Notes: generated by a model from the letters alone, not told the origin. Counted from the stretch's first letter, positions 1-36,888 are shown. The stretch is DNA of 64,000 nt from Pirellulales bacterium (GCA_963733035.1 CAVTBU010000002.1:1-64000), one strand, 5' to 3'. Made by a program: numbers and translations.

Positions 1-1399
1 TGTAACGTTTCTTCTGTAAACAGCACTCAAGGAATTCGCGTGTGAGGCTTGGCGGAGCGAAGGCGAGCGTCAGCGAGCCGAAGCGGAGCCAGGCCTCACA
101 CGCGGCGACGAGCTTGAAAGGGGTGGGCCAAGGTGGTTTCCTTTTGATTTTGTTCTCTACGCAAAACGAAAGGAGTTCGCCCCCATGGCCCACCACGATC
201 AATCTAACGCCCGTGACGAAGTTGTCCACCTCCTGGCCGAGCACGGATTCGAAGGCATGGCTCAGGCACTCGAAACCCTGTTCAACGAAGCGATGAAGCT
301 CGAACGCTCCGCGGTGCTGGGCGCCTCCCCTTATGAACGCACCGAAACGCGACTCGGTTATGCCAACGGCTTCAAGCCCAAGACCATCACCAGCCGTCTC
401 GGCAAGTTACACTTGCAGGTGCCCCAAACCCGTGGCGTCGAGTTCTACCCGTCGGCGCTCGAACGCGGCGAACGCAGCGAACGGGCCTTGAAGCTGGCCC
501 TGGCCGAGATGTACGTGCAAGGCGTCTCCACCCGCAAGGTGGCCGAGATCACCCGCGATCTGCGCGGCTGTGAGGTCTCCAGCATGCAGGTCAGCCGGGC
601 GGCCGAGCAGCTCGATGCCGAGCTGGAGATTTGGCGCAAGCGGCCGCTGGGCGCGACGCCGTACCTGATCCTCGATGCCCGTTACGAAAAAGTTCGCCAC
701 GGCGGCAGCGTCGTCGATTGCGCGGTGCTGATCGCGATCGGTGTCACGCCCGATGGCCGGCGTTCGATCCTGGGAGTCAGCGTCTCGCTCTCCGAGGCCG
801 AGGTGCACTGGCGTTCGTTCCTCTCCTCGCTCATCGACCGCGGTCTGCACGGCGTGCGGCTGATCACCAGCGACGATCACGCCGGGCTGGGCCAGGCACG
901 CCGGGCTTGCTTCCCCAGCGTCCCTTGGCAACGCTGCCAGTTCCACCTGATGCAAAACGCGCTGCACTACGTGCCGAAACTGCCGATGCGGCGCGAGGTG
1001 GCTCGCGATCTGCGCGGCGTGTGGGACGCGCCCGATCGCGGCGAGGCCGAGCGGCAACTGGACGTGCTGGTTCAGAAGTACCAGACCACCGCGCCGAAGC
1101 TGGCCACCTGGCTGGAAGCCAATGTGCCCGAAGGACTGACCGTGTTCGCCTTGCCGGCCGAACATCGCCGCCGGCTGCGCACGAGCAATCCGCTGGAGCG
1201 CCTCAACGAAGAAATCAAACGCCGCACCCGCGTCGCCACGCTGTTCCCCAACGAGGCCTCGCTCCTGCGGCTCGTCACCGCCATCCTCCAAGAAACCAGC
1301 GAAGACTGGGAAACCGGAAAAATCTACCTCAACCTGGAAACCAACTAGCCCACCCCAAACAAGCTCCCGAAGCTTTTACAGAAAAACGGTTGCTCAATC
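1..1399 (+). mobile_element. IS256-family insertion sequence (left tip probably clipped by window edge)
   Basis: Transposase 185-1348; imperfect terminal IRs: gtaacgtttcttctgtaaa (2-20) vs reverse complement of tttacagaaaaacggttgc (1375-1393). Confidence 0.85.
185..1348 (+). CDS. IS256/Mutator-family transposase
   Basis: Motifs EMYVQGVSTRKV, YLILDARYEKVR, WQRCQFH, RTSNPLERLNEEIKRRTRV. Confidence 0.95.
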   Translation: MAHHDQSNARDEVVHLLAEHGFEGMAQALETLFNEAMKLERSAVLGASPYERTETRLGYANGFKPKTITSRLGKLHLQVPQTRGVEFYPSALERGERSERALKLALAEMYVQGVSTRKVAEITRDLRGCEVSSMQVSRAAEQLDAELEIWRKRPLGATPYLILDARYEKVRHGGSVVDCAVLIAIGVTPDGRRSILGVSVSLSEAEVHWRSFLSSLIDRGLHGVRLITSDDHAGLGQARRACFPSVPWQRCQFHLMQNALHYVPKLPMRREVARDLRGVWDAPDRGEAERQLDVLVQKYQTTAPKLATWLEANVPEGLTVFALPAEHRRRLRTSNPLERLNEEIKRRTRVATLFPNEASLLRLVTAILQETSEDWETGKIYLNLETN

Positions 1400-18350: not shown

Positions 18351-19274
18351 ATGTATTGCCAACCGTTGTCCAGGATCACGATGATCGCTTTGTGTTGCCT
18401 TGCGGCCGCGGGCCAGTCGGGCCACGCTGACGAAGCGGCCGACCGCACGCAAGCGGCGCAAGCCATCCGCGAGGCTTCGCGGCAGTACACCGACGCCCTG
18501 AAACGCGGTGATGCGGCGGCCATGCTCGAAATGTGGGCCGAGGGGGGCGACATCGTCGACGAGTTCGGCAATTCCACTCCGGCCCAGGACGTCGTCCAGC
18601 GCGAGACTGCCGCCCGCTCTGCCGCGGTCAATGTCGACCCCACGGCGAAAATCGAGGTAGTCGACAACGCATTGCGTTTCATCACGCCCGACGTGGCGGT
18701 CGAAGATGGCAAGGTCGAAGTCAAACGCAACGGGATCGAGAGCTCGCCCCTGCACGGTCGCTTCACGGCTATCTGGGTGAAGCAGGGAGACAACTGGCGG
18801 TTGGCCAGCTTGCGCGAGATACATTTGGTCGCGCCACCCACGAACGATCTCGAGGCTCTCGATTGGCTGGTCGGCGAGTGGAAAGGGGAGGCCGGGGAGG
18901 CGACCTTTCAAATCTCGGCTAAGTGGAACGACAAACACACCTACCTGATCCGCGAACTAGTTGTCACGCACGGCGGCAAGACCGTGCTCAACGGGCAGCA
19001 ACGCATTGGCATCGACCCGCTCGACGGACAGATCAAGAGTTGGATGTACGACGCCGACGGCGGACACGGTGAAGGCGTTTGGACCCGCCACGGCAATAGC
19101 TGGGTCGTGCAGGCCACGGGCGTGAGCCCCGACGGACACCGCACGACGGGAACGAACATCTACCAACCCAGTGGAGCGAATCGCTTCACCTGGAAATCGA
19201 TCGGCGCAACGGCCGACGGACATAGCGTTCCCGATTTCGAGATGACGCTCGATCGCGTCGAAAGCAGCAAGTAA
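18351..19274 (+). CDS. secreted SgcJ/DUF4440 (NTF2-like) two-domain protein
   Basis: LRFITPDVAVEDG..WVKQGDNWRLASLRE..LDWLVGEW..IKSWMYDADGGHGEGVW. Confidence 0.8.
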   Translation: MYCQPLSRITMIALCCLAAAGQSGHADEAADRTQAAQAIREASRQYTDALKRGDAAAMLEMWAEGGDIVDEFGNSTPAQDVVQRETAARSAAVNVDPTAKIEVVDNALRFITPDVAVEDGKVEVKRNGIESSPLHGRFTAIWVKQGDNWRLASLREIHLVAPPTNDLEALDWLVGEWKGEAGEATFQISAKWNDKHTYLIRELVVTHGGKTVLNGQQRIGIDPLDGQIKSWMYDADGGHGEGVWTRHGNSWVVQATGVSPDGHRTTGTNIYQPSGANRFTWKSIGATADGHSVPDFEMTLDRVESSK

Positions 19275-19339: not shown

Positions 19340-20275
19340 ATGCCGCGGATCATGACTTTTGTGCTACTTGCATTGTCGCTTTCCGTTGCGTCGAGTTGCG
19401 TGCGAGCCGAATCCCCCAAGGAACCCGCCAGCGCGGACGCCCCCAAATCGCAAACAACGAAAGCCGCGACTCCACCCACGCCGCGGCCGGAGGCCGCCGA
19501 AGCGAAGCCCGAAACGGTGCAAATCGCGCAAAAGACGCCCACGGCACTTGTGGCCGAATCGAGCCCGCCGACCAGCGAGGTGGCGGCCGCTGAAGCTCCC
19601 ACGTCGCAATCTCAGCCGGCCCCCTCCTCAAGCGAGGCGGCCGCCGAAGAGAAGCTGCCCACGAAGCAGGAAATTCTCAACAGCCCACAATGGCGGCGGG
19701 CCATGTTCGAATTCAACGAGTGGCTTACGGCCCAGCCAATTTATACGCCCGAGCAGGTCAAGCAAATCAAGGACGGGTTTAATCACCGCGTGGCGGCGAT
19801 GGACGCCAAGGAACTGGTCTACATGTTGGCCGACATGGAAGCCAAATTTCAAGTGATGGATACGCCCCAGGCCAAGGAGGCCCGCGCGTGGATGGCTCAA
19901 TACTTGTCGGTGATGTCCGACAAAAAGCGGGCCGAGGTGCTCAAGAACGTACCGAACATCGCCACCATGACCGCGGCGCAATTGAATGCCGAGATCCAAA
20001 AGATCATTGCCAAGCGGCAAACCATGGACAGTGAGCAGGAGGCGTTTCAGCGCGGCCAGGCTCAACAAGTGGCCAATCAATTACAGACCGATCGCATCAA
20101 CCAGCGGAACTACGTCCGCGATTGGAACACCGGGCCGGTTTCCTATTCGCCTTATCGCAATGGCGGATCCAACGTCAACCAGCGGCTGAACAACACGCCC
20201 ACCGGTGCCGGCATGGGCTTCTACGTCGGCCCCCTGGGCGGCGTCGGGATGACGTTCGCGCCCAGCAGCTGGTAG
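19340..20275 (+). CDS. secreted hypothetical protein (Pro/Ala linker + helical domain)
   Basis: Signal peptide, RBS, typical codon usage. Confidence 0.75.
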   Translation: MPRIMTFVLLALSLSVASSCVRAESPKEPASADAPKSQTTKAATPPTPRPEAAEAKPETVQIAQKTPTALVAESSPPTSEVAAAEAPTSQSQPAPSSSEAAAEEKLPTKQEILNSPQWRRAMFEFNEWLTAQPIYTPEQVKQIKDGFNHRVAAMDAKELVYMLADMEAKFQVMDTPQAKEARAWMAQYLSVMSDKKRAEVLKNVPNIATMTAAQLNAEIQKIIAKRQTMDSEQEAFQRGQAQQVANQLQTDRINQRNYVRDWNTGPVSYSPYRNGGSNVNQRLNNTPTGAGMGFYVGPLGGVGMTFAPSSW

Positions 20276-20356: not shown

Positions 20357-20411
20357 TTGACTCCTTACGGCAAATGCCGTAACATGAGCCCTTGTACGGC
20401 AGATGCCGTAA
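20357..20411 (+). promoter_or_regulatory. sigma70-type promoter with two BlaI-type operator dyads
   Basis: TTGACT-17-TAACAT; TTACGGCAAATGCCGTAA (20365-20382) and GTACGGCAGATGCCGTAA (20394-20411). Confidence 0.8.
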
Positions 20412-20438
20412 ACATGGCGTCAACGGAGTCGCTCGATC

Positions 20439-20828
20439 ATGGCCAAGGAATTGCCTTCCCTGGGAGAACTTGAACTACAAGTGCTACGCGTCGTGTGGCA
20501 CGAGCAGCCGTGCACCGAACGTGCCGTTTGGGAGCAAATTGCCGCCGAGCGAGACGTCGGCCGCACCACCGTTCTCAAAACACTGCAGCGGTTGGAAGCC
20601 AAGGGGCTGCTCAAGCGCCAGGCGGGCGAAGGTCCGGTCCGCTATCGAGCCGCGGTGACCGAGGGCCGGGTCCTGCCGGACGTCGTGCGGCGGTTCGTCC
20701 AGGGCACGCTCGGCGGATCGCTTGAACCCCTGGTGCATTACCTGGCCGATAGTGAAAAACTCTCAGCAAAAGACCTGGCGGCCCTCCAAGCAATTGTGCG
20801 GAAGATGGCCGCGGATGATAAAACATAA
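20439..20828 (+). CDS. BlaI/MecI/CopY-family repressor
   Basis: LGELELQVLRVVW..TTVLKTLQRLEAKGLL..GGSLEPLVHYL. Confidence 0.92.
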   Translation: MAKELPSLGELELQVLRVVWHEQPCTERAVWEQIAAERDVGRTTVLKTLQRLEAKGLLKRQAGEGPVRYRAAVTEGRVLPDVVRRFVQGTLGGSLEPLVHYLADSEKLSAKDLAALQAIVRKMAADDKT

Positions 20829-20879
20829 GCGTTCGCCTGTCATTCAAAACTGCCGTTCGGCAAAGGCTGGAGTCGCGTC

Positions 20880-21866
20880 ATGACTTGGCTCGTCGATGCG
20901 TTGAACCGCTGCGGAACAGTCTGGGCTTCGCTCGTGGGAGTAGCCCTGTGGCAATCAACCATCGTCGCCATCCTGGTCGCCATGGCCGCGTGGGCACTGC
21001 GGCGCTCGTCGCCCGCGGTGCGCTTTTGGCTCTGGCAACTCGTGGCCATCAAGCTGCTACTCGTTCCGCTGGGAACCTGGTCGGTGGGCCTATCGTGGCT
21101 TCCGGCTATCGAGCCCAGTCCCGCGCAAGTGGAGCTAGCCGCGATTGTGGCGGAGCCCTCCCCTGCTCCGCCGCTCGACATGCCCACGAAGCAGGAACCA
21201 AAACCGGCCGCAAGTCTTGCGTCCGTTGCTTCGGCAACATCGGTTCAACCGGTCACGTTTCGCGACCTGACGTGGCAAGGCTGGTTGTTTGCTGGTTGGA
21301 CGGTGATCGTGGCAATGCTTGGTTTTCGGTTGTGGCTACAGCGGCATCGCCTGAACGCATTGCTACGCGCCACGACAGATGCCGACGAGGCCCTTTGCAG
21401 CGTCGTCGCCCAGGTGGCCGAGCAACTGGGCCTCAAGAACCCGCCCCGGGTGCGGATCACCAACTTGGATTGCTCGCCCTTCGTATGCGGCCTGCTGCGG
21501 CCAAGCATCGTGCTGCCCAAGTCGCTCGTGGGGGAACTCACCGCGGCTGAACTGCGACAGATACTCGCCCACGAACTGGCGCACCTCAAGCGGCACGACC
21601 TGACGTGGGGCTGGATCGCCGAGATTGCCCGTGTGGCGTACTTCTTCCATCCGGTCATTCACTGGGCGAGCTACCGCATTCGTCTGGAACGCGAACTGGC
21701 CTGCGACCAAATCGCGATCCAGCACAGCGGCCGCACCCCGATCCAATATGCCGAAACACTAGTGCGGGTGCTGAGCGCCGCCTCGCTGCCGAGTTCGCTT
21801 CGCGGGGCGGTCGCCTCACTCGATGGCGGTGCGCCACCGCGCGGACATGAGGGGCCTAAATCATGA
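20880..21866 (+). CDS. M56 (BlaR1-like) membrane metalloprotease lacking C-terminal TM and sensor
   Basis: TM segments, SPFVCGLLRPSIVLP, HELAHLKRHD, YFFHP, ERELACD, YAETLVRV, then stop. Confidence 0.92.
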   Translation: MTWLVDALNRCGTVWASLVGVALWQSTIVAILVAMAAWALRRSSPAVRFWLWQLVAIKLLLVPLGTWSVGLSWLPAIEPSPAQVELAAIVAEPSPAPPLDMPTKQEPKPAASLASVASATSVQPVTFRDLTWQGWLFAGWTVIVAMLGFRLWLQRHRLNALLRATTDADEALCSVVAQVAEQLGLKNPPRVRITNLDCSPFVCGLLRPSIVLPKSLVGELTAAELRQILAHELAHLKRHDLTWGWIAEIARVAYFFHPVIHWASYRIRLERELACDQIAIQHSGRTPIQYAETLVRVLSAASLPSSLRGAVASLDGGAPPRGHEGPKS

Positions 21867-22010
21867 GCCGCACAAAGTCTGCGAAGCGAATCAAACGACG
21901 AGAGGCTTCCTTCGGCCCCTGGGCCACGGCGCTGGACATCGAGCCTGGCGCCGCATTGAGCACCTTTTGGCAGAGGAGAATGGCAATGTTGGCGATGCTA
22001 GACAGGAGCG
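21777..22010 (+). repeat. 234-bp direct repeat, copy 1
   Basis: Matches 23012-23245 with about 10 substitutions and no indels (counted by eye). Confidence 0.95.
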
Positions 22011-22852
22011 ACTTGAAACCTTCCTGGCGGTTGCAGTTGTTCCTGGTGTTCGTCGGAGCAGGCTTGCTGGCTCTGCCCGCGGTTTACCTTTCGCGGGCGG
22101 AAATGGCGTACGCAGGTGCCGCGACAAATTTCGGGGGTGCACGTCGGAGTGATCCGGAATCGGCCGAATCTACGTTCAACACGCAAGCCGAAACCACGAA
22201 GACCATCGTTCCCGCGCTCGATATTAAGTTGCCCGACCCCGGCGCCGAGTACTACCCGAAGCCGAGCGAAGCCGAGCAGCGGATTGCGGATGCCTTTGAA
22301 ATGAATGCGTCTTTCGAGTTTGTCGAGACACCCTTGATTGGCGTCGCAATGGCGATTCAAGAGAAGCTGGGTGGGGATGTCGAGATCCAACTAGACAACC
22401 GGGCTCTTCAGGACGCCGGCATCCGCGATGATTCGCCGGTAACGCGTAAAATCAAGGATTTACCAGTTCGAACCGCCCTGCAACTCATTCTCAACGAATA
22501 CGATCTCACTTACCTGCTTCGCGAGGAAATGATCCTCATCACGTCCCAGGACAAAGCCGAAACGGAGTTGATCACCCGGACCTATCCAGTAGGCGACTTG
22601 ATCCCCTTGATGCCGGTGCAATCAATTTCTGGAGGAGGACGGGAGAAAGCTCGTAGCGGATACGAAACATTGATCGAGGCCATTACCACGACGGTCCGCC
22701 AGGACACATGGCAGGAAGTGGGAGGGCCGGGAACTATCGTTCCCGTGTCGGTGTCACACAGCCTCGTGATTTCCCAGACTAGTGACGTTCACGAGGCCGT
22801 GCTGGAACTGCTTCGCGCGCTGCGGGCCGCAAAGCAAGATTCAACGAGATGA
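21863..22852 (+). CDS. membrane-anchored secretin-N-like module 1 (alternative start 21980)
   Basis: FWQRRMAM, TM LLALPAVYLSR, FVETPL..TRTYPVGDL..WQEVGGPG..SLVISQT; ATGA overlap with M56 gene. Confidence 0.85.
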   Translation: MSRTKSAKRIKRREASFGPWATALDIEPGAALSTFWQRRMAMLAMLDRSDLKPSWRLQLFLVFVGAGLLALPAVYLSRAEMAYAGAATNFGGARRSDPESAESTFNTQAETTKTIVPALDIKLPDPGAEYYPKPSEAEQRIADAFEMNASFEFVETPLIGVAMAIQEKLGGDVEIQLDNRALQDAGIRDDSPVTRKIKDLPVRTALQLILNEYDLTYLLREEMILITSQDKAETELITRTYPVGDLIPLMPVQSISGGGREKARSGYETLIEAITTTVRQDTWQEVGGPGTIVPVSVSHSLVISQTSDVHEAVLELLRALRAAKQDSTR

Positions 22853-22956
22853 GTCGGGGAGGTGCGTCGAAGACCATTGCGTAAGGGGAATTTCTACCGG
22901 CCCTACGTGGCGGCCGTCTTGCCGGCAACCGACGTGCAGGTTTGTAACAGAGGAGA

Positions 22957-23085
22957 ATGGCAATGGCAGCAAATCTAGGAACAAAGAGCGGTCGGGCGGT
23001 GTGGCGTCAATGCCGCCTCGCTGCCGAGTTCGCTTCGCGGGGTGGTCGCCTCGCTCGACTGCGGCGCGCCACCGCGCGGAAATGA
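22957..23085 (+). pseudogene. interrupted start of a further module
   Basis: Same CAGAGGAGAATGGCAATG start, MAMAANLGTKSGRAVWR, then runs into repeat copy 2. Confidence 0.55.
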
Positions 23086-23245
23086 GGGACATGAATCATG
23101 AGCCGCACAAAGTCTGCGAAGCGAATCAAACGACGAGAGGCTTCCTTCGGCCCCTGGGCCACGGCGCTGGACACCGAGCCTGGCGCCGCATTGAGCACCT
23201 TTTGGCAGAGGAGAATGGCAATGTTGGCGATGCTAGACAGGAGCG
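23012..23245 (+). repeat. 234-bp direct repeat, copy 2
   Basis: Copy of the last 90 bp of the M56 gene plus the start of module 1. Confidence 0.95.
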
Positions 23246-24120
23246 GCGGTCGGATAACCTGGCGTTCACGCGTGTTTCTTGCGATGACTGGGCTGGCGCT
23301 GCTCGCGCTGCCGGCGGTGTACTTGTCGCGACAGGAGTCGGCACATGCCGAAAGCCCATCACAAAACCAGTCGGCGGACCAATCAAACGTCTTCGCGCTG
23401 GACGAGAAGTCTGCACGGGAGAGCCCCACCGACAACCCGTTCGCCAGTCGGACGTTCGAAGCAAGTCGCCAAATAGCCAGCTCGGTCGCTGCGCGGCCCA
23501 CCGCTGAGTTCTTTCCCAAGCCCAGCGAAGATGAGCAGAGCCTGCAGGCGGCCTTGGAAAAACGCGGCGGGTTTGATTTCGTGCAAATGCCGTTAAGTGA
23601 CGCGATGGCCTTTATCCAAGATGCCCATGAATTGCAGATCCAGCTCGATACACGCGCCTTGGAAGAAGCCGGCGTCGGATCCGACACTCCGATTAACTTG
23701 AAAGCCGAAGGCATCCCGGTTCGCTCGGCGTTGCGGCTCCTCCTCGACGATCACGACTTGAGCTACATCATCCGCGAGGGGTTACTGTTGATAACGACCG
23801 AAGACAAAGCCGCGATGGAGTTCGTTACCCGCACTTATCCGGTGGGCGACTTAGTGCCGGAGACTCCGGTCGAATCGATTCCGGGTGGCGGCAGGGGCAA
23901 ACCTCGCACGGGCTACGAAACGCTAGTCGAGGCCATCACCAGCACCATCTACCCTCAAAGCTGGCAGGAATTGGGGGGCGCGGCATCGATCGTACCGGTT
24001 CCCGTCTCCCGGAGTCTCGTGATTTCGCAGACGCGCGACGCGCACGACGAAGTGCTGGAACTGCTTCGCTCGCTACGGACGGCAAAACAGGAAGGCTCGA
24101 CCACGGGAACTAGCGATTAA
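23098..24120 (+). CDS. membrane-anchored secretin-N-like module 2 (alternative start 23215)
   Basis: Paralog of 21863-22852 with near-identical N-terminus. Confidence 0.85.
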   Translation: MSRTKSAKRIKRREASFGPWATALDTEPGAALSTFWQRRMAMLAMLDRSGGRITWRSRVFLAMTGLALLALPAVYLSRQESAHAESPSQNQSADQSNVFALDEKSARESPTDNPFASRTFEASRQIASSVAARPTAEFFPKPSEDEQSLQAALEKRGGFDFVQMPLSDAMAFIQDAHELQIQLDTRALEEAGVGSDTPINLKAEGIPVRSALRLLLDDHDLSYIIREGLLLITTEDKAAMEFVTRTYPVGDLVPETPVESIPGGGRGKPRTGYETLVEAITSTIYPQSWQELGGAASIVPVPVSRSLVISQTRDAHDEVLELLRSLRTAKQEGSTTGTSD

Positions 24121-24149
24121 AAATCGGAACACCTTTTTGGAAGAGGAGC

Positions 24150-25112
24150 ATGGCAATGGCAACGACCTTCGAAAACCACAGCCCGAGCACAAAGTGGCGT
24201 TTCCGGATCCTGCTGGCCGTTGTCGGGCTGGCACTGCTCGCACTGCCGGCAGCTTATCTGTCGCGAGTCACGCTGGCGCAGACGGAGAGTTCGAAACCGG
24301 CGGCCGACCAACAACAAGCCGTCCCGACAGGGCAGATCAGCGAAACCGAAACAGAGATTGACGTGAAACTCGTAGCGTCGCCCACACCGGCGCGCACTCT
24401 GCCCGAACCGAACATCGAGTACTTTCCCGAGCCCAGCCAGCGCGAGCGGCAAATCACCGATGGTTTGGACCAGAAGGCCTCGTTCGAGTTCGTCGAGACG
24501 CCGCTGATCGGTGTCGCCCAGGCGATCGAAGAGAAGTTGGGAGGCAAGGTCGAAATTCAATTGGACTATCGGGCGCTTGAAGATGCGGGAGTCGGCAGCG
24601 ATACACCACTGACTCGCAACGTCAAGGATATGTCCGTGGGTGCGGCGCTCCGTTTGTTGCTTGGTGACCTCGATCTCACTTATCTGATTCAAGACGAAAT
24701 GATTCTCATCACGACGCAGGATAAAGCGGAAACGGCATTGATCACCCGCACCTATCCGGTCGGTGACCTGGTGCCAGAATTTCCGGCTGCGCCCGTTCCA
24801 GGGGGCACGAACGGTGGTGCGAAAGGCGGCGGGATGTTTTCCGTACCCGATCGCGCCAACTGGCTCGCTCAAATGGCCGGAAGAACCTCAAAAACGTCGC
24901 GACCTAGTGCTCCATATCGCCGCGACTACGATTCGCTGATCAATGCGATTACAACCACGGTCTACGCGGCAACCTGGGATGATGTTGGCGGGCCGGGCTC
25001 GATCGTGCCGGTGCCAGTCTCGCATGCATTGGTTATATCGCAAACCGCGGAAGTGCATGGTGCCGTGCTCGAATTGCTTCGCGCACTGCGCAGCCAAACG
25101 CGAAGCCGGTGA
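24150..25112 (+). CDS. membrane-anchored secretin-N-like module 3
   Basis: MAMA..KWR..LALLALPAAYLSR; same domain motifs as modules 1 and 2. Confidence 0.85.
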   Translation: MAMATTFENHSPSTKWRFRILLAVVGLALLALPAAYLSRVTLAQTESSKPAADQQQAVPTGQISETETEIDVKLVASPTPARTLPEPNIEYFPEPSQRERQITDGLDQKASFEFVETPLIGVAQAIEEKLGGKVEIQLDYRALEDAGVGSDTPLTRNVKDMSVGAALRLLLGDLDLTYLIQDEMILITTQDKAETALITRTYPVGDLVPEFPAAPVPGGTNGGAKGGGMFSVPDRANWLAQMAGRTSKTSRPSAPYRRDYDSLINAITTTVYAATWDDVGGPGSIVPVPVSHALVISQTAEVHGAVLELLRALRSQTRSR

Positions 25113-25144
25113 AGCGGGCTGACACGTACGGCTGGCATTGGATC

Positions 25145-25777
25145 TCACGGCTTGCGAAAACAGGCTGTGTAGGTCCAGAAACCCCCTTCAACGCGCTCGG
25201 GAGCAAAGCCCGCGGCCTGGGCCAGTTCGCGAACTTTGCTTCGCGACTGATAGTGTGGGTCTCCCTTGATTTCGGTGATCGCCAGGCTTCCGCCGGGCTT
25301 GAGCACTCGGAAACATTCGGCCAGTGCCGCCGCACGGTCGGGCACCTCTCCCAACACCGTGCACAGGAACGCCAGATCGACCGAGTCCGAATCGAGCTGC
25401 AGCTTCGTCGCATCGCCAACCTGCGTCGTGAGATTGGTGACCCCGGCCCGCTTCGCCCGGGCGTTCAAACGCTCGATCATTTTCGCTTGCAGGTCGATGC
25501 CGATCGCCCGGCCCCCAGGCAAGATGCGAAACGACGCGGGAATGAGCAATCGTCCCGGCCCGGGTCCAACCTCCAAAATGGTTTGTCCCGGCCGCAGCCG
25601 CATTCGCTCGAGCGTGCGGTTCGTACCGGCCACCAGATCGACCAGCGAGCCTTCCAGCCACCAACTGAACAGCGAAGGACACGGCAATTGCCAGCGTCGA
25701 CTGGCAAATCGCCACGCAAGGCTCACCAGTACGAAGCCCACTACAAGTATCAACAGGGTGACGATCGCAAACTTCAT
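25145..25777 (-). CDS. class I SAM-dependent methyltransferase with N-terminal TM
   Basis: ILEVGPGPG, VGDAT, RVLKPGG. Confidence 0.88.
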   Translation of the reverse strand: MKFAIVTLLILVVGFVLVSLAWRFASRRWQLPCPSLFSWWLEGSLVDLVAGTNRTLERMRLRPGQTILEVGPGPGRLLIPASFRILPGGRAIGIDLQAKMIERLNARAKRAGVTNLTTQVGDATKLQLDSDSVDLAFLCTVLGEVPDRAAALAECFRVLKPGGSLAITEIKGDPHYQSRSKVRELAQAAGFAPERVEGGFWTYTACFRKP

Positions 25778-34110: not shown

Positions 34111-36474
34111 CTACAAATCGCTTCCATTCGGTTTGGAAACCTCGTCCGACAAGTCCGCACCACGAGTTTGGTCGCCCGTGGGTGGAAACACGCGTATCGT
34201 CCAACTACTCGCGAGGTCCAGTGGCGTGGGTGGACGCTCGTGCAATTGAGTGAGCACTTGCTGCGCTTCCGCCGCAATGACCGGGTCTGCCGAGGTGGCT
34301 AGCCGTTGCAATTCCGCAACCGCGGCCTCGCCCAATCGATACAACGACGCCTGTGCAGCCTCGCGAACTTGACCATCTCGATGCGCGAGTAAATCTGCGA
34401 CCTGAGACACCAAAGTGGGAAACGGGGCGATTGTCGCCTCGCTGTTGGGCAAGCCAACCAGGCTTCGCTTGACGCCGCCGACCAATGCCAGCGCGGAAAT
34501 CACCTCCGCCGAGCTACCGGAGGCCAGGCCATCGTGCAGGGAGCTTGCCAGGACGGGTGATTCATGGGCAATGGCAGCTGCACCGATGCGAGCGGCTACT
34601 CGAACCCTTGGATCTTCATCCTGGAGAGCGTCGAGGTAATGGGGCGCCCAGTCTCGCGCCTGCCAATTTGCGACCGGCAGCATGCACAGTGCAAAGAGCC
34701 GTTGGTTCGCGTTGTCGGAGTGCAAGGACTCTTGCAGCAGCCGTGTCGTTGCCTGTCGCGGAAATCGATCAATCGCGGACACCGCCGCCAACTTGAGTTG
34801 ACCGATCGGACCTTCGTCGAAGGTTGCGATCGAGTAGTCTCGCATCAGCTGGATCAGTTCGCCAATCGCCTCCATTTCATAACCTTCGAGTGCAAACGCG
34901 GGGAGGCTCTCGATCGCCTCGCGGCGCACGAGCGGGTCGGAGTTCGATGCGATAAGTTCCTTCCACTGCTCGAAGGTCTTGCCGCTGTAACGGAATCGCC
35001 CACGCTCCTCGTCTGACGCGCCGGGCATTGCGGCTCGCGGCACCGCCGGTGCGTCGACCATGCCTGCGTTGCGGTTGAACGCCCGCACTTGCTGACGCTG
35101 AAACTCGGTCCAGTGGTAATCTCGAATCGCTTGCAATGCCGCGTCGCGTTGCACTCCGGCCTCGGCACTGGCTTGCAGGCGAGCTAAAATCGCGTTAGCC
35201 CAAATCGGATTCAGTTCCGTCCCCGCTCGTTTCGTCAGTTCGCCGACCGTCAACTCGTCCAGTGACGCGACGTCGAACGCAGTCGACGCAGGCAGTGCGG
35301 TCAGGCCCCGTGCGTCGATCGCGGCTGTCGAATTTGCAGTACGATCGAATGCGGCCGCTTGCTCGGCAAACATTGAATCCTGAGGTGCCAGGGGCGCTGT
35401 TTCGCGCGCCACCAGTCTCACCCTGACCGAGGCCAACAGCAGGACGCACGCGGCGGCCAACAGCAAGCCGTTCTTTTTCCAAGGGGAATCGTCGCTGTGA
35501 TGTAGTTCAAGTACGCGCCGAATACGGGCGGCCAGCGGGCGGCCACGCCCGGCACTGCTCAGGTGCATTCGGCTACTAACCAATTCCCCTAGTCGAACCA
35601 GGGTGTTGGCGTAGACGGTGGGCTGGCTACCGCCAGCCTCGCGGTCGCAGGCCCACTCGGCCGCCTCATCGAATCGACGAACGGCCAGCCAGGAAACCGG
35701 ATTGAACCAATGCGGCAGTGCTAGCAAGCGAACGGCCAGCGACTTCCACACATCGCCCCGCTGCCAGTGTGCCAACTCGTGTCGTAAGATAGCCTCTCGC
35801 TGCCGTGCGTCGAGCGTTTTCCACAGACTCGCCGGCACAAACAGTTCGTATCCTCGCGGAAGCCGGCAAAGTAGCGGCCCCGTGCTCTCCGTGACTCGCA
35901 GGCGCACCCAATCTCCCCGGCCCCCCTCCGCAAGCAGCGCGTGCCACTGGTCGCGCCAGGCGCTATCCGCGGAAATCTCAGGCGGCAAATGCGTAACAAA
36001 CCATGCATAGCCGACGACCATCGACGCGGCCACGACCGCCAGGCCGCCGATCCACGTCATCCATGCGAAGTTGCGCCACGCGAAGTTCGCCACGGCCGTC
36101 TCGACCGGCTTGGGTGCCGCCCCAACGGATTCCCCGGCGAGTGATTGCCCACTTGCCTGCCATCCGTGATTGTGCACCGTGGCGGTTTGATCGTTGCTCG
36201 TGACCGTCGCGCTCGTCGACCAGCTTGAGTGGGTCTCGGCCGCTCGCAAGTCAGGCGTCGCGATGCGTGACGGCGGATCGAGCCAGGGGACATCGAGTGA
36301 GAGGCCGTAGAGCGTCCAGCCGGCCAGCAACACGGCGCACCAAACCATGCGGTGCAATCGCGGCGATCGTATGCGCGCAACGCGCAACGCGACCCCCGCA
36401 AGCAGTCCGACAGCGGTCATCCACAACGTGGCCCGTCCGATCTCTTCCAGCAACGAGGACTCGAAGTGATGCAT
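34111..36474 (-). CDS. full-length M56 (BlaR1-like) protease with HEAT-repeat C-terminus
   Basis: HELAHWQRGD, HWFNP, EWACD, YANTLVRL..LAARIRRVL..PWKK+TM, then HEAT-like repeats. Confidence 0.9.
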   Translation of the reverse strand: MHHFESSLLEEIGRATLWMTAVGLLAGVALRVARIRSPRLHRMVWCAVLLAGWTLYGLSLDVPWLDPPSRIATPDLRAAETHSSWSTSATVTSNDQTATVHNHGWQASGQSLAGESVGAAPKPVETAVANFAWRNFAWMTWIGGLAVVAASMVVGYAWFVTHLPPEISADSAWRDQWHALLAEGGRGDWVRLRVTESTGPLLCRLPRGYELFVPASLWKTLDARQREAILRHELAHWQRGDVWKSLAVRLLALPHWFNPVSWLAVRRFDEAAEWACDREAGGSQPTVYANTLVRLGELVSSRMHLSSAGRGRPLAARIRRVLELHHSDDSPWKKNGLLLAAACVLLLASVRVRLVARETAPLAPQDSMFAEQAAAFDRTANSTAAIDARGLTALPASTAFDVASLDELTVGELTKRAGTELNPIWANAILARLQASAEAGVQRDAALQAIRDYHWTEFQRQQVRAFNRNAGMVDAPAVPRAAMPGASDEERGRFRYSGKTFEQWKELIASNSDPLVRREAIESLPAFALEGYEMEAIGELIQLMRDYSIATFDEGPIGQLKLAAVSAIDRFPRQATTRLLQESLHSDNANQRLFALCMLPVANWQARDWAPHYLDALQDEDPRVRVAARIGAAAIAHESPVLASSLHDGLASGSSAEVISALALVGGVKRSLVGLPNSEATIAPFPTLVSQVADLLAHRDGQVREAAQASLYRLGEAAVAELQRLATSADPVIAAEAQQVLTQLHERPPTPLDLASSWTIRVFPPTGDQTRGADLSDEVSKPNGSDL

Positions 36475-36495: not shown

Positions 36496-36888
36496 TCACT
36501 TCTTCGACTTCGACTGACGCTCCACGTCGGCAATGATTTTTTTTAGTTCCGAGATCTCGTCCGCTGACAGAGTCCAGTCCCGCACCAGATGCGCGACCAG
36601 CGGCACGACGCTGCCGCCTGAGATTCGTTCGACTAGCAAGCTTAAATGACCTGCGCTTACTTCAGACGGTTCGATGGCGGCCGAATATTGGGCCGGACGC
36701 TCCGAGGTGCGGGCCACCAGTTTCTTTTCCACCAGGCGATTCAACCGTGTCTGAATCGTCGTGTAACCGATGGCGCGGCCCATTTTCGCCTGGGCTCCCG
36801 AGAGCGTGACCGGCCCATGGTTCCAGAGCATTTGCAAGATTTCCATTTCACCGGCCGACAATCGGCGCGGCTTCCGACGCTTCCGCAT
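36496..36888 (-). CDS. BlaI/MecI/CopY-family repressor
   Basis: LSAGEMEILQMLW..YTTIQTRLNRLVEKK..GGSVVPLVAHL. Confidence 0.92.
   Translation of the reverse strand: MRKRRKPRRLSAGEMEILQMLWNHGPVTLSGAQAKMGRAIGYTTIQTRLNRLVEKKLVARTSERPAQYSAAIEPSEVSAGHLSLLVERISGGSVVPLVAHLVRDWTLSADEISELKKIIADVERQSKSKK

What the first reader, a model, noticed from the sequence alone, without database searches (positions are those of the whole stretch)
20357..25112. Genetically split BlaR1-like receptor: one M56 protease with three separately encoded TM/sensor subunits
Seen: the M56 gene ends ~30 aa after YAETLVRV. The unsplit paralog at 34111-36474 continues YANTLVRL..LAARIRRVL..PWKK-TM-sensor. The equivalent segment (FWQRRMAM..WR-TM LALPAxYLSR + exported domain) starts the next gene via an ATGA overlap and recurs in two more tandem paralogs. 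Established: BlaR1/MecR1 are single chains that self-cleave in the region around the RR helix after the protease domain, then cleave BlaI. Inference: the gene break sits about where autocleavage occurs, giving a pre-cleaved protease that could pair in trans with alternative sensor subunits (a modular, multi-input BlaI circuit). Both diverged copies of the junction keep the same stop/start phase, which argues against a sequencing indel. I cannot confirm that this is unpublished.
Basis: partly seen in the sequence, partly recalled or inferred. Interest (0 to 1): 0.85.

Follow-up and report, generated by a model that had tools for sequence, protein, structure and literature searches.

The report
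Naturally split BlaR1-like receptor operon
A planctomycete operon encodes a BlaI repressor, the protease half of a BlaR1-type membrane receptor, and the missing membrane-helix-plus-sensor half as separate genes, a two-piece design that recurs in many related genomes.

Summary
blaI (20439-20828) is followed by a 328-aa M56 protease (20880-21866) that stops just after its catalytic domain. Three tandem genes for single-pass membrane proteins with a secretin N0-N1-like exported domain follow it. It is not an indel or a pseudogene. The order BlaI, short M56, then 1-4 modules recurs in 20 of 22 assessable loci from other genomes (30-58% identity).

The module N-terminus (FGPWATALD..LSTFW[QK]RRMAML plus a TM helix) defines 449 protein clusters. 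It is N-terminal in 142 of the best 150. The exported domains behind it are very varied.

Close unsplit relatives (P0185, P0197) carry the same LSTFWKRR helix, TM helix and exported domain in one chain. A profile alignment puts that helix on BlaR1 alpha9 (R293/R294). The gene break therefore falls in the loop that BlaR1 autocleaves at S283|F284.

Physical pairing is inferred; the complex prediction gave only weak support (0.56, best control 0.00). No paper found describes this design.

The parts
20357..20385 (+). sigma-70-like promoter match (TTGACT-17-TAACAT) upstream of blaI
   Evidence: This is a consensus match only: 2 sites were found against 1.0 expected in shuffles.
20365..20411 (.). 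Two copies of the palindrome TACGGCA-NN-TGCCGTA (20366-20381 and 20395-20410), 29 nt apart and overlapping the promoter-like site. Candidate BlaI operators.
   Evidence: These two sites are the only matches with fewer than 2 mismatches in the 6.6-Mb genome; the other 18 matches each have 2 mismatches. In the loci whose blaI position is known, the palindrome lies just upstream of blaI, often as a pair 28-33 nt apart.
20439..20828 (+). BlaI/MecI-family winged-helix repressor, 129 aa
   Evidence: Pfam PF03965, 2.6e-25. It aligns without gaps to S. aureus BlaI 1sd4 over residues 9-121. Y101|L102 stands at the position of the BlaI N101|F102 cleavage site (the site is from PMC9834060).
20880..21866 (+). 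N-terminal half of a BlaR1-type receptor: TM helices plus the M56 gluzincin domain. It carries H231-E232-x-x-H235, E272 and D276, and ends in a conserved ..S.PS.FR..A.AGLDG tail plus a variable tail.
   Evidence: Pfam PF05569, 5.7e-37. NCBIfam blaR1_generic covers profile positions 95-275 of 585 only. The invariant residues and the tail come from the alignment of 10 short M56 proteins.
21863..22852 (+). Module 1, the C-terminal half of the receptor as its own gene. It has a cytoplasmic peptide (residues 1-54, with FGPWATALD and STFWQRRMAML), a TM helix (about residues 55-78) and an exported secretin N0-N1-like domain (about 135-329).
   Evidence: the N-terminal motif is conserved in 12 homologues of 40-48% identity. 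(model: exported part has pLDDT 80-93). (Foldseek: PilQ, GspD, EscC, XcpQ N0-N1, E from 5e-6 to 2.4e-4).
21974..21988 (+). AGG AGA ATG GCA ATG inside module 1. These are the rare Arg codons of the RR motif. They form a GGAG(A) Shine-Dalgarno-like word 7 nt before the invariant second ATG (M42). The same string lies in module 2 at 23209-23223.
   Evidence: The source's gene caller started modules 1 and 2 at M42 (P0060 288 aa, P0067 299 aa).
22853..23097 (+). Spacer holding two relics. 22948-22995 is a diverged copy of a module start (..AGGAGAATGGCAATGG..). 23012-23101 is a copy of the last 29 codons and stop of M56, preceded by an in-frame stop.
   Evidence: repeat families D1 and D3; translation.
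23098..24120 (+). Module 2, with the same architecture as module 1. Its first ~50 residues are near-identical to module 1 through a recent duplication or conversion; the rest is about 57% identical.
24114..24149 (+). Untranslatable relic of the FWKR(R) helix just upstream of module 3. It reads RLKIGTPFWKRS behind a stop, with no start codon.
24150..25112 (+). Module 3: a TM helix plus the same exported domain, starting at 'MAM' and lacking the FGPW..FW.RR peptide. The same short form ends the operons in L014 and L023.
   Evidence: (the N-terminal profile matches only from position 39).
34111..36474 (-). Unsplit M56 paralogue (787 aa, M56 + TM + HEAT repeats), used as the comparison
36496..36888 (-). 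BlaI-family repressor paired with the unsplit paralogue
   Evidence: PF03965, 4.3e-22.

Best explanation
This is an autoregulated BlaI/BlaR1-type 'cut the repressor' switch in which the receptor is encoded in two pieces.

The M56 gene supplies the N-terminal transmembrane helices and the zinc protease, up to the loop that staphylococcal BlaR1 cuts in itself. Each downstream module supplies what lies after that cut: a cytoplasmic peptide, a transmembrane helix and an exported sensor domain. The peptide ends in the FW(Q/K)RR helix, the equivalent of BlaR1 alpha9, whose Arg294 helps to build the protease active site. The sensor domain here is a secretin N0-N1-like fold, not a penicillin-binding domain.

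Shown here:
- the gene anatomy;
- its conservation in other genomes;
- homology of the module N-terminus to the same segment of unsplit relatives and of BlaR1;
- the large family of such stand-alone sensor halves with many kinds of exported domain.

Inferred:
- the protease half and modules 1 and 2 assemble non-covalently through the FGPW..FW.RR peptide and the membrane helix;
- an envelope cue sensed by the exported domain shifts that peptide, and the protease then cleaves BlaI;
- BlaI leaves the two palindromes at the operon's own promoter;
- one protease can serve alternative sensors.

Module 3 lacks the docking peptide. It probably acts as a free membrane-anchored copy of the sensor domain, as a partner or a competitor in the periplasm.
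For: Anatomy.

Only truncated M56 in the genome: of 15 ORFs matching the M56 profile, this is the only one that ends right after the domain.

Conservation: among 23 other loci with a motif-bearing module, a short M56 gene lies directly upstream on the same strand in 20. It is absent in 2 (L020, L069), and 1 is cut by its contig end (L035). Complete short M56 genes have 319-386 aa. The offset from the last base of the M56 stop to the module start was measured in the window and 10 other loci:
- ATGA overlap in 4 (window, L013, L016, L017);
- TAATG in L025;
- 5 nt in L014, L015 and L019;
- 17 nt in L023, 38 nt in L026, and 45-99 nt in L028.
The L024 junction was left out (see Tried and rejected).

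The N-terminal peptide is a real protein feature. It is conserved in 12 homologues that are only 40-48% identical overall. G5, L19, F22, W23, R25, R26, M29 and P59 are invariant in 22 sequences.

Family size: 449 clusters at E<=1e-3 and 286 at <=1e-10. The motif starts within the first 18 residues in 142 of the best 150.

Unsplit relatives carry the same helix, TM helix and exported domain.

Mapping to BlaR1 comes, together with PMC9834060 passages. Those passages describe autocleavage at S283|F284 in loop 271-289, and Arg294' on alpha9' forming a salt bridge with Asp246 at the active site. The matching residue D276 is invariant in the short M56 proteins, and RR is invariant in the modules.

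Quick tree: split and unsplit forms interleave. P0197 is sister to L028 (99), and P0185 groups with L024, L017 and L026 (98).

Diverse sensors inside such operons: CarboxypepD_reg and Redoxin in L057, PD40 twice in L058, HlyD + ConA-like in L060.

Operators.
Against: No experiment or expression data exist for any member.

The module-to-protease contact rests on homology.

In the window, module 3 lacks the docking peptide. Module 2 sits behind a 245-nt spacer with relics, not behind a full M56 gene.

Two of the 22 assessable loci have a motif-bearing module with no M56 within 3.8-6 kb upstream.

The only perfect operators in the genome are at the operon's own promoter. The modules could therefore be the regulated output as much as the input.

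The operon was not found in 3 of 3 same-genus genomes, so it is accessory.

BlaI has Y|L, not N|F, at the aligned cleavage position.
Confidence: 0.75

Rival explanations
1. The M56 gene is a true sensor-less BlaR that works alone, like those described in Mycobacterium, P. aeruginosa PvmS or C. difficile CenR. The modules are the regulated cargo of the operon: envelope proteins with secretin N0-N1-like domains. On this view their N-terminal peptide is an evolutionary leftover of a former fusion, not a docking element.
For: The only perfect BlaI-type palindromes in the genome sit at this operon's promoter, so the modules are what BlaI controls. Sensor-less M56 proteins are common and are reported in print (passages of 10.64898/2026.08.03.742534, and of PMC13492132). 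Module 3, and the last modules of L014 and L023, do without the peptide. The complex prediction gave weak support only.
Against: A leftover would decay, yet the peptide is the best-conserved part of the family. It defines 449 clusters, with invariant F, W, RR and M. It is kept in front of unrelated exported domains. Without a module the short M56 lacks the alpha9 arginine that BlaR1 uses at its active site. Stop/start coupling is tight in most loci.
Confidence: 0.12
2. The modules are substrates rather than subunits. The M56 protease recognises and cuts the conserved cytoplasmic peptide, as in regulated proteolysis of a membrane anchor. That would free or destabilise the exported domain, with BlaI cleavage as a parallel event.
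For: In BlaR1 the equivalent loop lies in the active site as a substrate and stays there as a product (PMC9834060 passages). The module N-terminus typically begins only 3-5 residues before FGPW, which resembles a product end.
Against: The 55-residue cytoplasmic part holds no recognisable effector domain: Pfam finds nothing even at E 10. Homology to alpha9 and TM4 of unsplit receptors points to a structural role. No cleavage data exist.
Confidence: 0.08
3. The split is an artefact or a recent pseudogene: a frameshift in a once continuous M56-sensor gene, made by an assembly error or by decay.
For: The window's genome is a 10-contig assembly, 92% complete. L023 shows a fragmented copy of the operon. 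P0368 is a frameshifted read-through of BlaI, M56 and a module. No sequencing run bridged the junction.
Against: The same split, with its own start codon and an extra conserved FGPWATALD peptide that unsplit relatives lack, is found in 20 other loci of different genomes. The junctions differ between loci (ATGA, TAATG, gaps of 5-99 nt), so no single frameshift can restore a fusion. The module frame has a stop 4 codons before its ATG.
Confidence: 0.02

Closest known systems
Staphylococcus aureus BlaR1/BlaI and MecR1/MecI (cryo-EM 8EXP-8EXT; PMC9834060, passages read)
   Same: A BlaI-family repressor sits next to an M56 gluzincin membrane protease with HExxH and E...D. An RR helix (alpha9) follows the protease, then a transmembrane helix and an exported sensor. 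BlaR1 spontaneously cuts itself at S283|F284 into fragments 1-283 and 284-585. The gene break here maps to the same loop.
   Different: Here the two fragments are separate genes. The sensor is a secretin N0-N1-like domain, not a penicillin-binding domain. There are three sensor genes for one protease. The loop is longer and carries extra conserved motifs (..AGLDG tail, FGPWATALD). Beta-lactam sensing is not implied.
Unsplit planctomycete M56 receptors with the same helix (P0185 645 aa and P0197 678 aa with the same exported domain; P0180 and P0189 with PD40 propellers; P0201 with CarboxypepD_reg)
   Same: Their M56 domain is 42-47% identical. They carry LSTFWKRRxxML, a TM helix and an exported domain. 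They interleave with split forms in the tree.
   Different: They are one polypeptide. They lack the variable M56 tail, the stop and start, and the FGPWATALDTGPG peptide.
'Sensor-less' BlaR homologues: M. tuberculosis Rv1845c, M. abscessus MAB_2414c, P. aeruginosa PvmS (bioRxiv 10.64898/2026.08.03.742534, passages) and C. difficile CenR (PMC13492132, passages)
   Same: An M56 protease with no large C-terminal sensor, paired with a BlaI-like repressor, and with an unknown signal.
   Different: In the passages read, those proteins are described as lacking a sensor, with no partner gene proposed. Here the missing half is encoded immediately downstream and is recognisable by the alpha9-like helix. 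I did not examine those genes myself.
Secretin N0-N1 periplasmic domains (GspD, PilQ, EscC, XcpQ) and STN-type signalling domains of FecR/PupR-like anti-sigma factors and TonB-dependent transducers
   Same: The exported domain shares the fold (Foldseek E from 5e-6 to 2.4e-4 for secretin N0-N1; 4m0n anti-sigma factor 1.2e-3; PupA signalling domain 1.4e-2). Homologues carry PF07660 STN and PF16344. The same domain occurs in this genome's own secretin.
   Different: There is no secretin pore domain and no FecR anti-sigma domain. The domain is anchored by one N-terminal TM helix and coupled to an M56 protease.
   Same: The same idea: a sensor-less M56 plus a next gene that encodes the missing half, with interchangeable outer domains.
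   Different: It is in a different phylum with a different outer domain. Whether it shares the FW.RR helix or the break point was not tested here.

Membership tests
BlaR1/MecR1-type M56 signal transducer | M56 gluzincin domain with HExxH and the downstream E...D | tested here: met
   PF05569, 5.7e-37. H231, E232, H235, E272 and D276 are invariant in 10 short M56 proteins. The profile aligns to BlaR1 8EXP at E 4.9e-14.
BlaR1/MecR1-type M56 signal transducer | Adjacent BlaI/MecI-family repressor | tested here: met
   PF03965, 2.6e-25. Of the 11 loci with an upstream M56, 9 have BlaI upstream of it, and the other 2 are cut by the contig end.
BlaR1/MecR1-type M56 signal transducer | Protease, alpha9 RR helix, last TM helix and sensor in one polypeptide | tested here: not met
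   M56 stops at 21866. The RR helix, TM helix and exported domain start a new gene at 21863.
BlaR1/MecR1-type M56 signal transducer | Penicillin-binding (transpeptidase-like) extracellular sensor | tested here: not met
   No PF00905 or other Pfam family in the modules. The fold matches secretin N0-N1.
BlaR1/MecR1-type M56 signal transducer | Conserved arginine pair on the helix after the autocleavage loop (R293/R294) | tested here: met
   RR is invariant in 22 module N-termini and aligns with BlaR1 R293-R294. Here it lies on a separate chain.
BlaR1/MecR1-type M56 signal transducer | Cleavage of BlaI, and of itself, by the protease | not testable with these tools
   This needs biochemistry. The aligned BlaI site reads Y101|L102 instead of N101|F102.
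Secretin N0-N1 / STN domain | N0 (STN-like) plus N1 (Secretin_N-like) fold | tested here: met
   AlphaFold2 model with pLDDT 80-93 over residues 135-329. Foldseek top hits are PilQ, BfpB, EscC, GspD and XcpQ N0-N1. At the sequence level the match is sub-threshold only: Secretin_N 0.0095 in module 2.
Secretin (outer-membrane pore) | C-terminal secretin pore domain PF00263 | tested here: not met
   No PF00263 in modules 1-3. The proteins end after N1.
FecR/PupR-type anti-sigma factor | N-terminal cytoplasmic anti-sigma domain, with an ECF sigma factor gene alongside | tested here: not met
   No Pfam match in the first 80 residues even at E 10. The neighbours are BlaI and M56, not a sigma factor.
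Sensor-less BlaR (Rv1845c / PvmS / CenR type) | M56 protein without a C-terminal sensor and with no separately encoded sensor half | tested here: not met
   The M56 protein is short, but the sensor half is encoded downstream and is homologous to the C-terminal part of unsplit receptors.

The most novel reading that the evidence does not exclude
One M56 protease half serves as a common catalytic core for several interchangeable, separately encoded sensor halves, forming a combinatorial receptor. On this reading each sensor gene also makes a second, docking-incompetent isoform from a conserved internal Shine-Dalgarno-plus-ATG placed exactly in the RR codons. The cell would then set the ratio of coupled to free sensor domains by translation. 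The split would make BlaR1's 'maturation by autocleavage' a hard-wired genetic state.
Probability: 0.3. Interest if true: 0.8.

Novelty: new variant of a known kind. Interest (0 to 1): 0.68.

Why it matters
BlaR1 and MecR1 control beta-lactam resistance in staphylococci, and what their autocleavage does is still debated. A lineage that encodes the two autocleavage products as separate genes is a natural experiment. Some of its members have close single-chain relatives. Together they suggest that the N- and C-terminal fragments are a functional non-covalent pair and that the covalent link is dispensable.

The finding also helps annotation. Hundreds of clusters of 'hypothetical' membrane proteins with LRR, PD40, HlyD, LTXXQ, thioredoxin, PDZ, HEAT or secretin-like domains can now be read as sensor halves of M56 switches.

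It suggests that 'sensor-less' BlaR homologues reported in other phyla should be checked for a downstream partner gene.

Finally, it offers a modular scaffold for studying how one membrane protease integrates several envelope signals: one protease with swappable sensors.

Tried and rejected
1. My first idea was that the modules really start at the internal ATG and that FWQRR is only an untranslated ribosome-binding site. The grounds were and the gene-caller starts. It is rejected as the sole reading, because the upstream peptide is conserved at the protein level in distant homologues. It survives only as a possible second start.

2. The N-terminal profile against this genome's own ORFs gave only non-significant hits (E 0.9 and 2.2) at the right place in two unsplit M56 paralogues. 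That is not usable evidence.

3. phmmer of P0185 against PDB sequences found nothing at E<=0.01. The profile search was needed instead.

4. Complex prediction of the M56 alignment (A5) with the 66-residue N-terminal alignment (A3) gave 'weak support'.
- Median score 0.56, best of 3 controls 0.00.
- Partner pLDDT at least 64; the runs agree in at least 85% of contacts.
- By the tool's calibration, 116 of 157 solved complexes and 2 of 215 mismatched pairs reached the mark. At 0.60 or under, only 18 of those 157 and both mismatches did.
- BlaR1 itself is solved, so a pass could also come from memory.

5. Sequencing runs: 5 DNA runs hold small shares (0.05-0.19) and no RNA holder is listed. Of the contigs of 4 runs laid on 20400-25200, none bridges position 21860 with 31 letters on both sides. 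There is therefore no read-level statement on the junction or on expression.

6. Programmed -1 frameshifting to make a fused protein is rejected. The module frame has a stop 4 codons before its ATG, and the junctions in other loci have gaps of 5-99 nt.

7. A Tat signal peptide (RR followed by a hydrophobic stretch) was considered from the recalled consensus S/T-RRxFLK. It is rejected. About 17 polar residues separate RR from the hydrophobic helix, and the same segment is internal in unsplit receptors.

8. Phe at the module N-terminus as a mimic of BlaR1 P1' Phe284 is left as speculation. The cognate BlaI has Y|L at the aligned site.

9. The phylum-wide search found the motif only in the window's genome: 1 of 401 genomes, only 3 of the other 400 being of the same order, and only 15 candidates scored per genome. 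This is a weak negative.

10. The L024 junction was not resolved. An ATGA start (MNQTFG..) shows in the DNA print at the M56 stop, but I paired that M56 with a later module and did not follow up the earlier ORF.

11. Literature searches found no description of a split M56 receptor.

12. Earlier notes of this scan: nothing for this place or this sequence.

Full report
THE OBSERVATION. On the + strand the window holds five genes:
- a BlaI-family repressor (20439-20828, PF03965 2.6e-25);
- an M56 peptidase gene of 328 aa (20880-21866, PF05569 5.7e-37, matching profile positions 9-273 of 296);
- three tandem genes of 329, 340 and 320 aa (21863-22852, 23098-24120, 24150-25112) with no Pfam family above threshold.

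M56 ends 31 residues after YAETLVRV. Module 1 starts in the ATGA that contains the M56 stop. That ATG is the only possible start between an in-frame stop at 21848-21850 and the conserved motif. An M56 profile finds 15 ORFs in the whole 6.6-Mb genome. The window's gene is the only one that stops right after the domain; the rest have 398-1374 aa. They include the unsplit M56-HEAT paralogue at 34111-36474 with its own BlaI.

IT IS NOT AN ARTEFACT. A pattern scan of one genome per species returned 31 loci. In 13 of them an ORF carries the module's N-terminal part. A short M56 gene lies directly upstream on the same strand in 11 of these 13. It is absent in 1 (L020), and 1 is cut by its contig end (L035). 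BlaI precedes M56 in 9 of the 11; the other two are cut.

A search of 301 genomes of the window's order gave 16 regions that I cut out. Nine of these 10 have the short M56 upstream, and one (L069) does not. In total that is 20 of 22 assessable loci.

The M56 proteins are 37-55% identical to the window's by the alignment (58% to L013 over the tree's columns). Complete ones have 319-386 aa. The junctions differ between loci:
- ATGA overlap in the window, L013, L016 and L017;
- TAATG in L025;
- an offset of 5 nt in L014, L015 and L019;
- 17, 38 and 45-99 nt in L023, L026 and L028.
No single frameshift could restore a fusion.

THE MODULE N-TERMINUS IS A CONSERVED PEPTIDE. Homologues only 40-48% identical overall keep FGPWATALDtGPGa.LSTFW(Q/K)RRMAML, then about 15 polar residues and a TM helix. 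In 22 sequences G5, L19, F22, W23, R25, R26, M29 and P59 are invariant.

A 64-position profile of this segment, run against 1.84 billion representative proteins, found 449 at E<=1e-3 and 286 at <=1e-10. Among the best 150:
- the match starts within the first 18 residues in 142;
- it starts at residue 27-55 in 7, which look like upstream start calls;
- it starts at residue 401 in one, P0368. On reading, P0368 is a frameshifted read-through of a BlaI tail, an M56 and a module, not a true fusion.

I gave 60 of these 150, mostly the longer ones, to Pfam. Apart from P0368, none has M56. The exported parts carry HlyD barrel-sandwich, LTXXQ (8 proteins), CarboxypepD_reg, LRR, PD40 or WD40 propellers, PDZ, HEAT, AhpC-TSA/thioredoxin, DUF1559, Secretin, STN or ConA-like domains, or nothing recognisable.

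Inside BlaI/short-M56 operons the modules are likewise mixed:
- L057 has a CarboxypepD_reg module and a Redoxin module;
- L058 has two PD40 modules;
- L060 has HlyD plus ConA-like;
- L056 has four modules, two of them of the window's type.

HOMOLOGY TO UNSPLIT RECEPTORS AND TO BlaR1. The closest long relatives of the short M56 (42-47% identity, 575-2000 aa searched) carry the helix and TM helix in one chain, in the form ..S.P..L....LSTFWKRR(L/M/I)xMLP... P0180 and P0189 continue with PD40 propellers, and P0201 with CarboxypepD_reg. P0185 (645 aa) and P0197 (678 aa) continue with the same exported domain as the window's modules. The unsplit forms lack the variable M56 tail and the FGPWATALDTGPG peptide. 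In the order search they match the motif profile only from position 10 or later. Four such genes were checked and have HExxH upstream in the same frame.

A profile of 29 unsplit relatives hits S. aureus BlaR1 (8EXP) at E 4.9e-14. The printed alignment puts ..lstf-lkrRl.. on BlaR1 K288-S289-L290-L291-K292-R293-R294. The passages of PMC9834060 that I read state the following:
- BlaR1 cuts itself between S283 and F284, in the loop 271-289 between alpha8 and the swapped alpha9;
- the fragments 1-283 and 284-585 persist;
- Arg294' on alpha9' forms a salt bridge with Asp246 at the active site.

The Asp equivalent (D276) is invariant in the short M56 proteins, and RR is invariant in the modules. NCBIfam aligns the short M56 to positions 95-275 of the 585-position BlaR1 model. 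The gene break therefore lies in the autocleavage-loop equivalent, and the module supplies alpha9, the last TM helix and the sensor. The loop is longer than in BlaR1, so the break cannot be placed to the residue.

SPLIT AND UNSPLIT FORMS INTERLEAVE. I built a quick maximum-likelihood tree of 52 M56 domains: 10 split, 25 close unsplit and 17 distant. One row of 192 aa was dropped. P0197 is sister to the split L028 (SH-aLRT 99). P0185 groups with the split L024, L017 and L026 (98). Starred branches force at least 3 changes of state. The direction of change, fission or re-fusion, is not resolved. The tree is a short search with long outgroup branches.

THE EXPORTED DOMAIN. The AlphaFold2 model of module 1 (14-row alignment, mean pLDDT 68.5) is confident for residues 135-329 (pLDDT 80-93) and poor for the cytoplasmic part and the linker. 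Foldseek against the PDB ranks secretin N0-N1 regions first:
- PilQ 3jc8 5.0e-6, BfpB 1.7e-5, EscC 3.7e-5, GspD 7.8e-5, XcpQ 1.0e-4;
- an anti-sigma factor (4m0n, 1.2e-3) and the PupA signalling domain (1.4e-2) lower down.
TM-scores are low (0.18-0.30), because half of the query is disordered and the two subdomains are oriented differently.

The same domain occurs in this genome's own 1307-aa secretin and in VWA-type giants. The best longer homologues carry PF16344 and PF07660 (STN). Only 2 of 59 carry M56.

REGULATION. Two copies of the palindrome TACGGCA-NN-TGCCGTA lie 29 nt apart at 20366-20410 and overlap a promoter-like site. They are the only matches with fewer than 2 mismatches in the genome; the other 18 matches each have 2 mismatches. 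In the loci whose blaI position is known, the same palindrome lies just upstream of blaI, often as a pair 28-33 nt apart. The operon is thus probably self-repressed by its BlaI, and no other target is evident.

DETAILS OF THIS WINDOW. 21777-22010 and 23012-23245 are 96% identical. This is a recent duplication or conversion. It copied the last 29 codons of M56, the ATGA junction and the first ~50 codons of module 1 in front of module 2. The rest of module 2 is only about 57% identical to module 1. The copied M56 tail stands behind a stop and is a relic. A second relic, of an older module start, lies at 22948-22995. Module 3 starts at the MAM of RRMAM. Upstream, the frame still reads ..TPFWKRS but has a stop and no start codon. 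The same short type ends the operons of L014 and L023.

AN UNEXPECTED NUCLEOTIDE-LEVEL SIGNAL. I collected 33 module N-termini from the window and the loci.
- The first Arg of RR is AGG in 23, CGG in 8, CGC in 1 and AGA in 1.
- The second Arg is AGA in 28, AGG in 3 and CGG in 2.
- In this genome's long ORFs, AGA and AGG make up only 2.4% and 3.7% of Arg codons.
- Neighbouring synonymous sites vary freely.

The result is a GGAG(A) word 7 nt before the second Met codon, which is invariant (M29). Four unsplit genes show the same pattern. The source's gene caller chose exactly this ATG for modules 1 and 2. The sequences are related, so the counts are not independent. This may be a conserved internal start that gives a docking-less isoform, or a pause site. 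I could not test either.

DISTRIBUTION. At E<=1e-5, 29 of 301 genomes of the order match, the window's genome included. In 22 the match covers the full motif from profile position 5 or earlier, and in 7 only from position 10 or later. In the window's family, 12 of 32 other genomes match. In the same genus, 0 of 3 match. Those three genomes hold only distant unsplit M56 paralogues, at most 35% identical. In an even sample of the phylum, 1 of 401 genomes matched, and that one is the window's own. Only 3 of the others were of the same order, and only 15 candidates per genome were scored. Three record titles name proteobacterial MAGs (L014, L024, L034). On short contigs this may be a binning error.

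WHAT IS IN PRINT. Seven full-text searches found no description of a split M56 receptor. Passages of PMC13492132 report 254 domain architectures among about 15,000 M56 proteins, most of them without a penicillin-binding domain. Passages of bioRxiv 10.64898/2026.08.03.742534 describe sensor-less BlaR proteins in Pseudomonas and mycobacteria. Neither set of passages mentions a separately encoded sensor half. I read passages only and no supplements. An earlier AI note of this scan (e1-904793) reports an analogous two-piece design in gut Clostridia. I did not test it.

MECHANISM AND ITS STATUS. Shown here are the anatomy, its conservation, the homology of the parts to BlaR1's two autocleavage fragments, and the modularity of the sensor halves.

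Inferred are the following steps. The M56 half and modules 1 and 2 assemble through the FGPW..FW.RR peptide and the TM helix, and the module's arginine completes the active site. An envelope cue acting on the N0-N1-like domain releases the cleft. BlaI is cut and the operon is derepressed. Module 3 acts as a free anchored sensor copy.

The main rival is that the modules are output rather than input. It is kept alive by the self-contained regulon and by the weak complex score.

Noticed in passing
window 21974-21988 and 23209-23223; also L013-L076: The RR of the FW.RR helix is encoded almost always by the rare codons AGG-AGA: first Arg AGG in 23 of 33, second Arg AGA in 28 of 33, against genome use of 3.7% and 2.4%. 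This makes a GGAG(A) word 7 nt before an invariant ATG. It is also present in 4 unsplit M56 genes. It may be an internal translation start or a pause site.
   Followed up: partly
window 20366-20381 and 20395-20410: A paired 16-nt palindrome TACGGCA-NN-TGCCGTA sits at the operon promoter. It is conserved upstream of blaI in the related loci. There is no other site with fewer than 2 mismatches in the genome, so the repressor seems to control only its own operon.
   Followed up: partly
window 22853-23097: The spacer between modules 1 and 2 holds a relic of a module start (22948-22995) and a copy of the last 29 codons of M56 (23012-23101). They are traces of rearrangement within the array.
   Followed up: yes
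G000:C5:1410176-1414294, 1748951-1750306 and 1750853-1751932 (own genome, outside the window): Paralogues of the exported domain in a 1372-aa VWA-type protein and in two smaller ORFs carry long runs of GGM/GGGM repeats between the N0-like and N1-like parts.
   Followed up: no
L021:1453-11934 and L022:643-12108: Giant open frames (3494 aa and more than 2490 aa) contain 9 and at least 4 tandem copies of the same N0-N1-like unit. This is a different architecture for the domain.
   Followed up: no
window 42-296 (+), and own genome C7:848-1102, C8:3643-3897, C5:2532602-2532856, C7:385316-385570: Five 84-aa ORFs give the same stretch match to the motif profile (E 0.14 in three, 0.28 in two). Three of them lie near contig ends. 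Probably a repeated or mobile element.
   Followed up: no
P0368 (658 aa, metagenome protein): A called 'protein' that runs from a BlaI C-terminus through an M56 domain, shifts frame after ..RILLER, and reads into a module start (..MSENPFGPWATALS..). It is a frameshifted or mis-called copy of the operon.
   Followed up: partly
L014, L024, L034 (record titles): Contigs with this planctomycete-type operon or domain are filed under Betaproteobacteria, Deltaproteobacteria and Alcaligenaceae MAGs. On contigs of 5-7 kb this looks like mis-binning.
   Followed up: no
window 18351-19274 and 19340-20275: Upstream on the same strand lie a DUF4440/SnoaL-like protein with a signal-like N-terminus (PF14534, 5.7e-13) and a 311-aa exported low-complexity protein. 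Both lie outside the palindrome-controlled unit.
   Followed up: no
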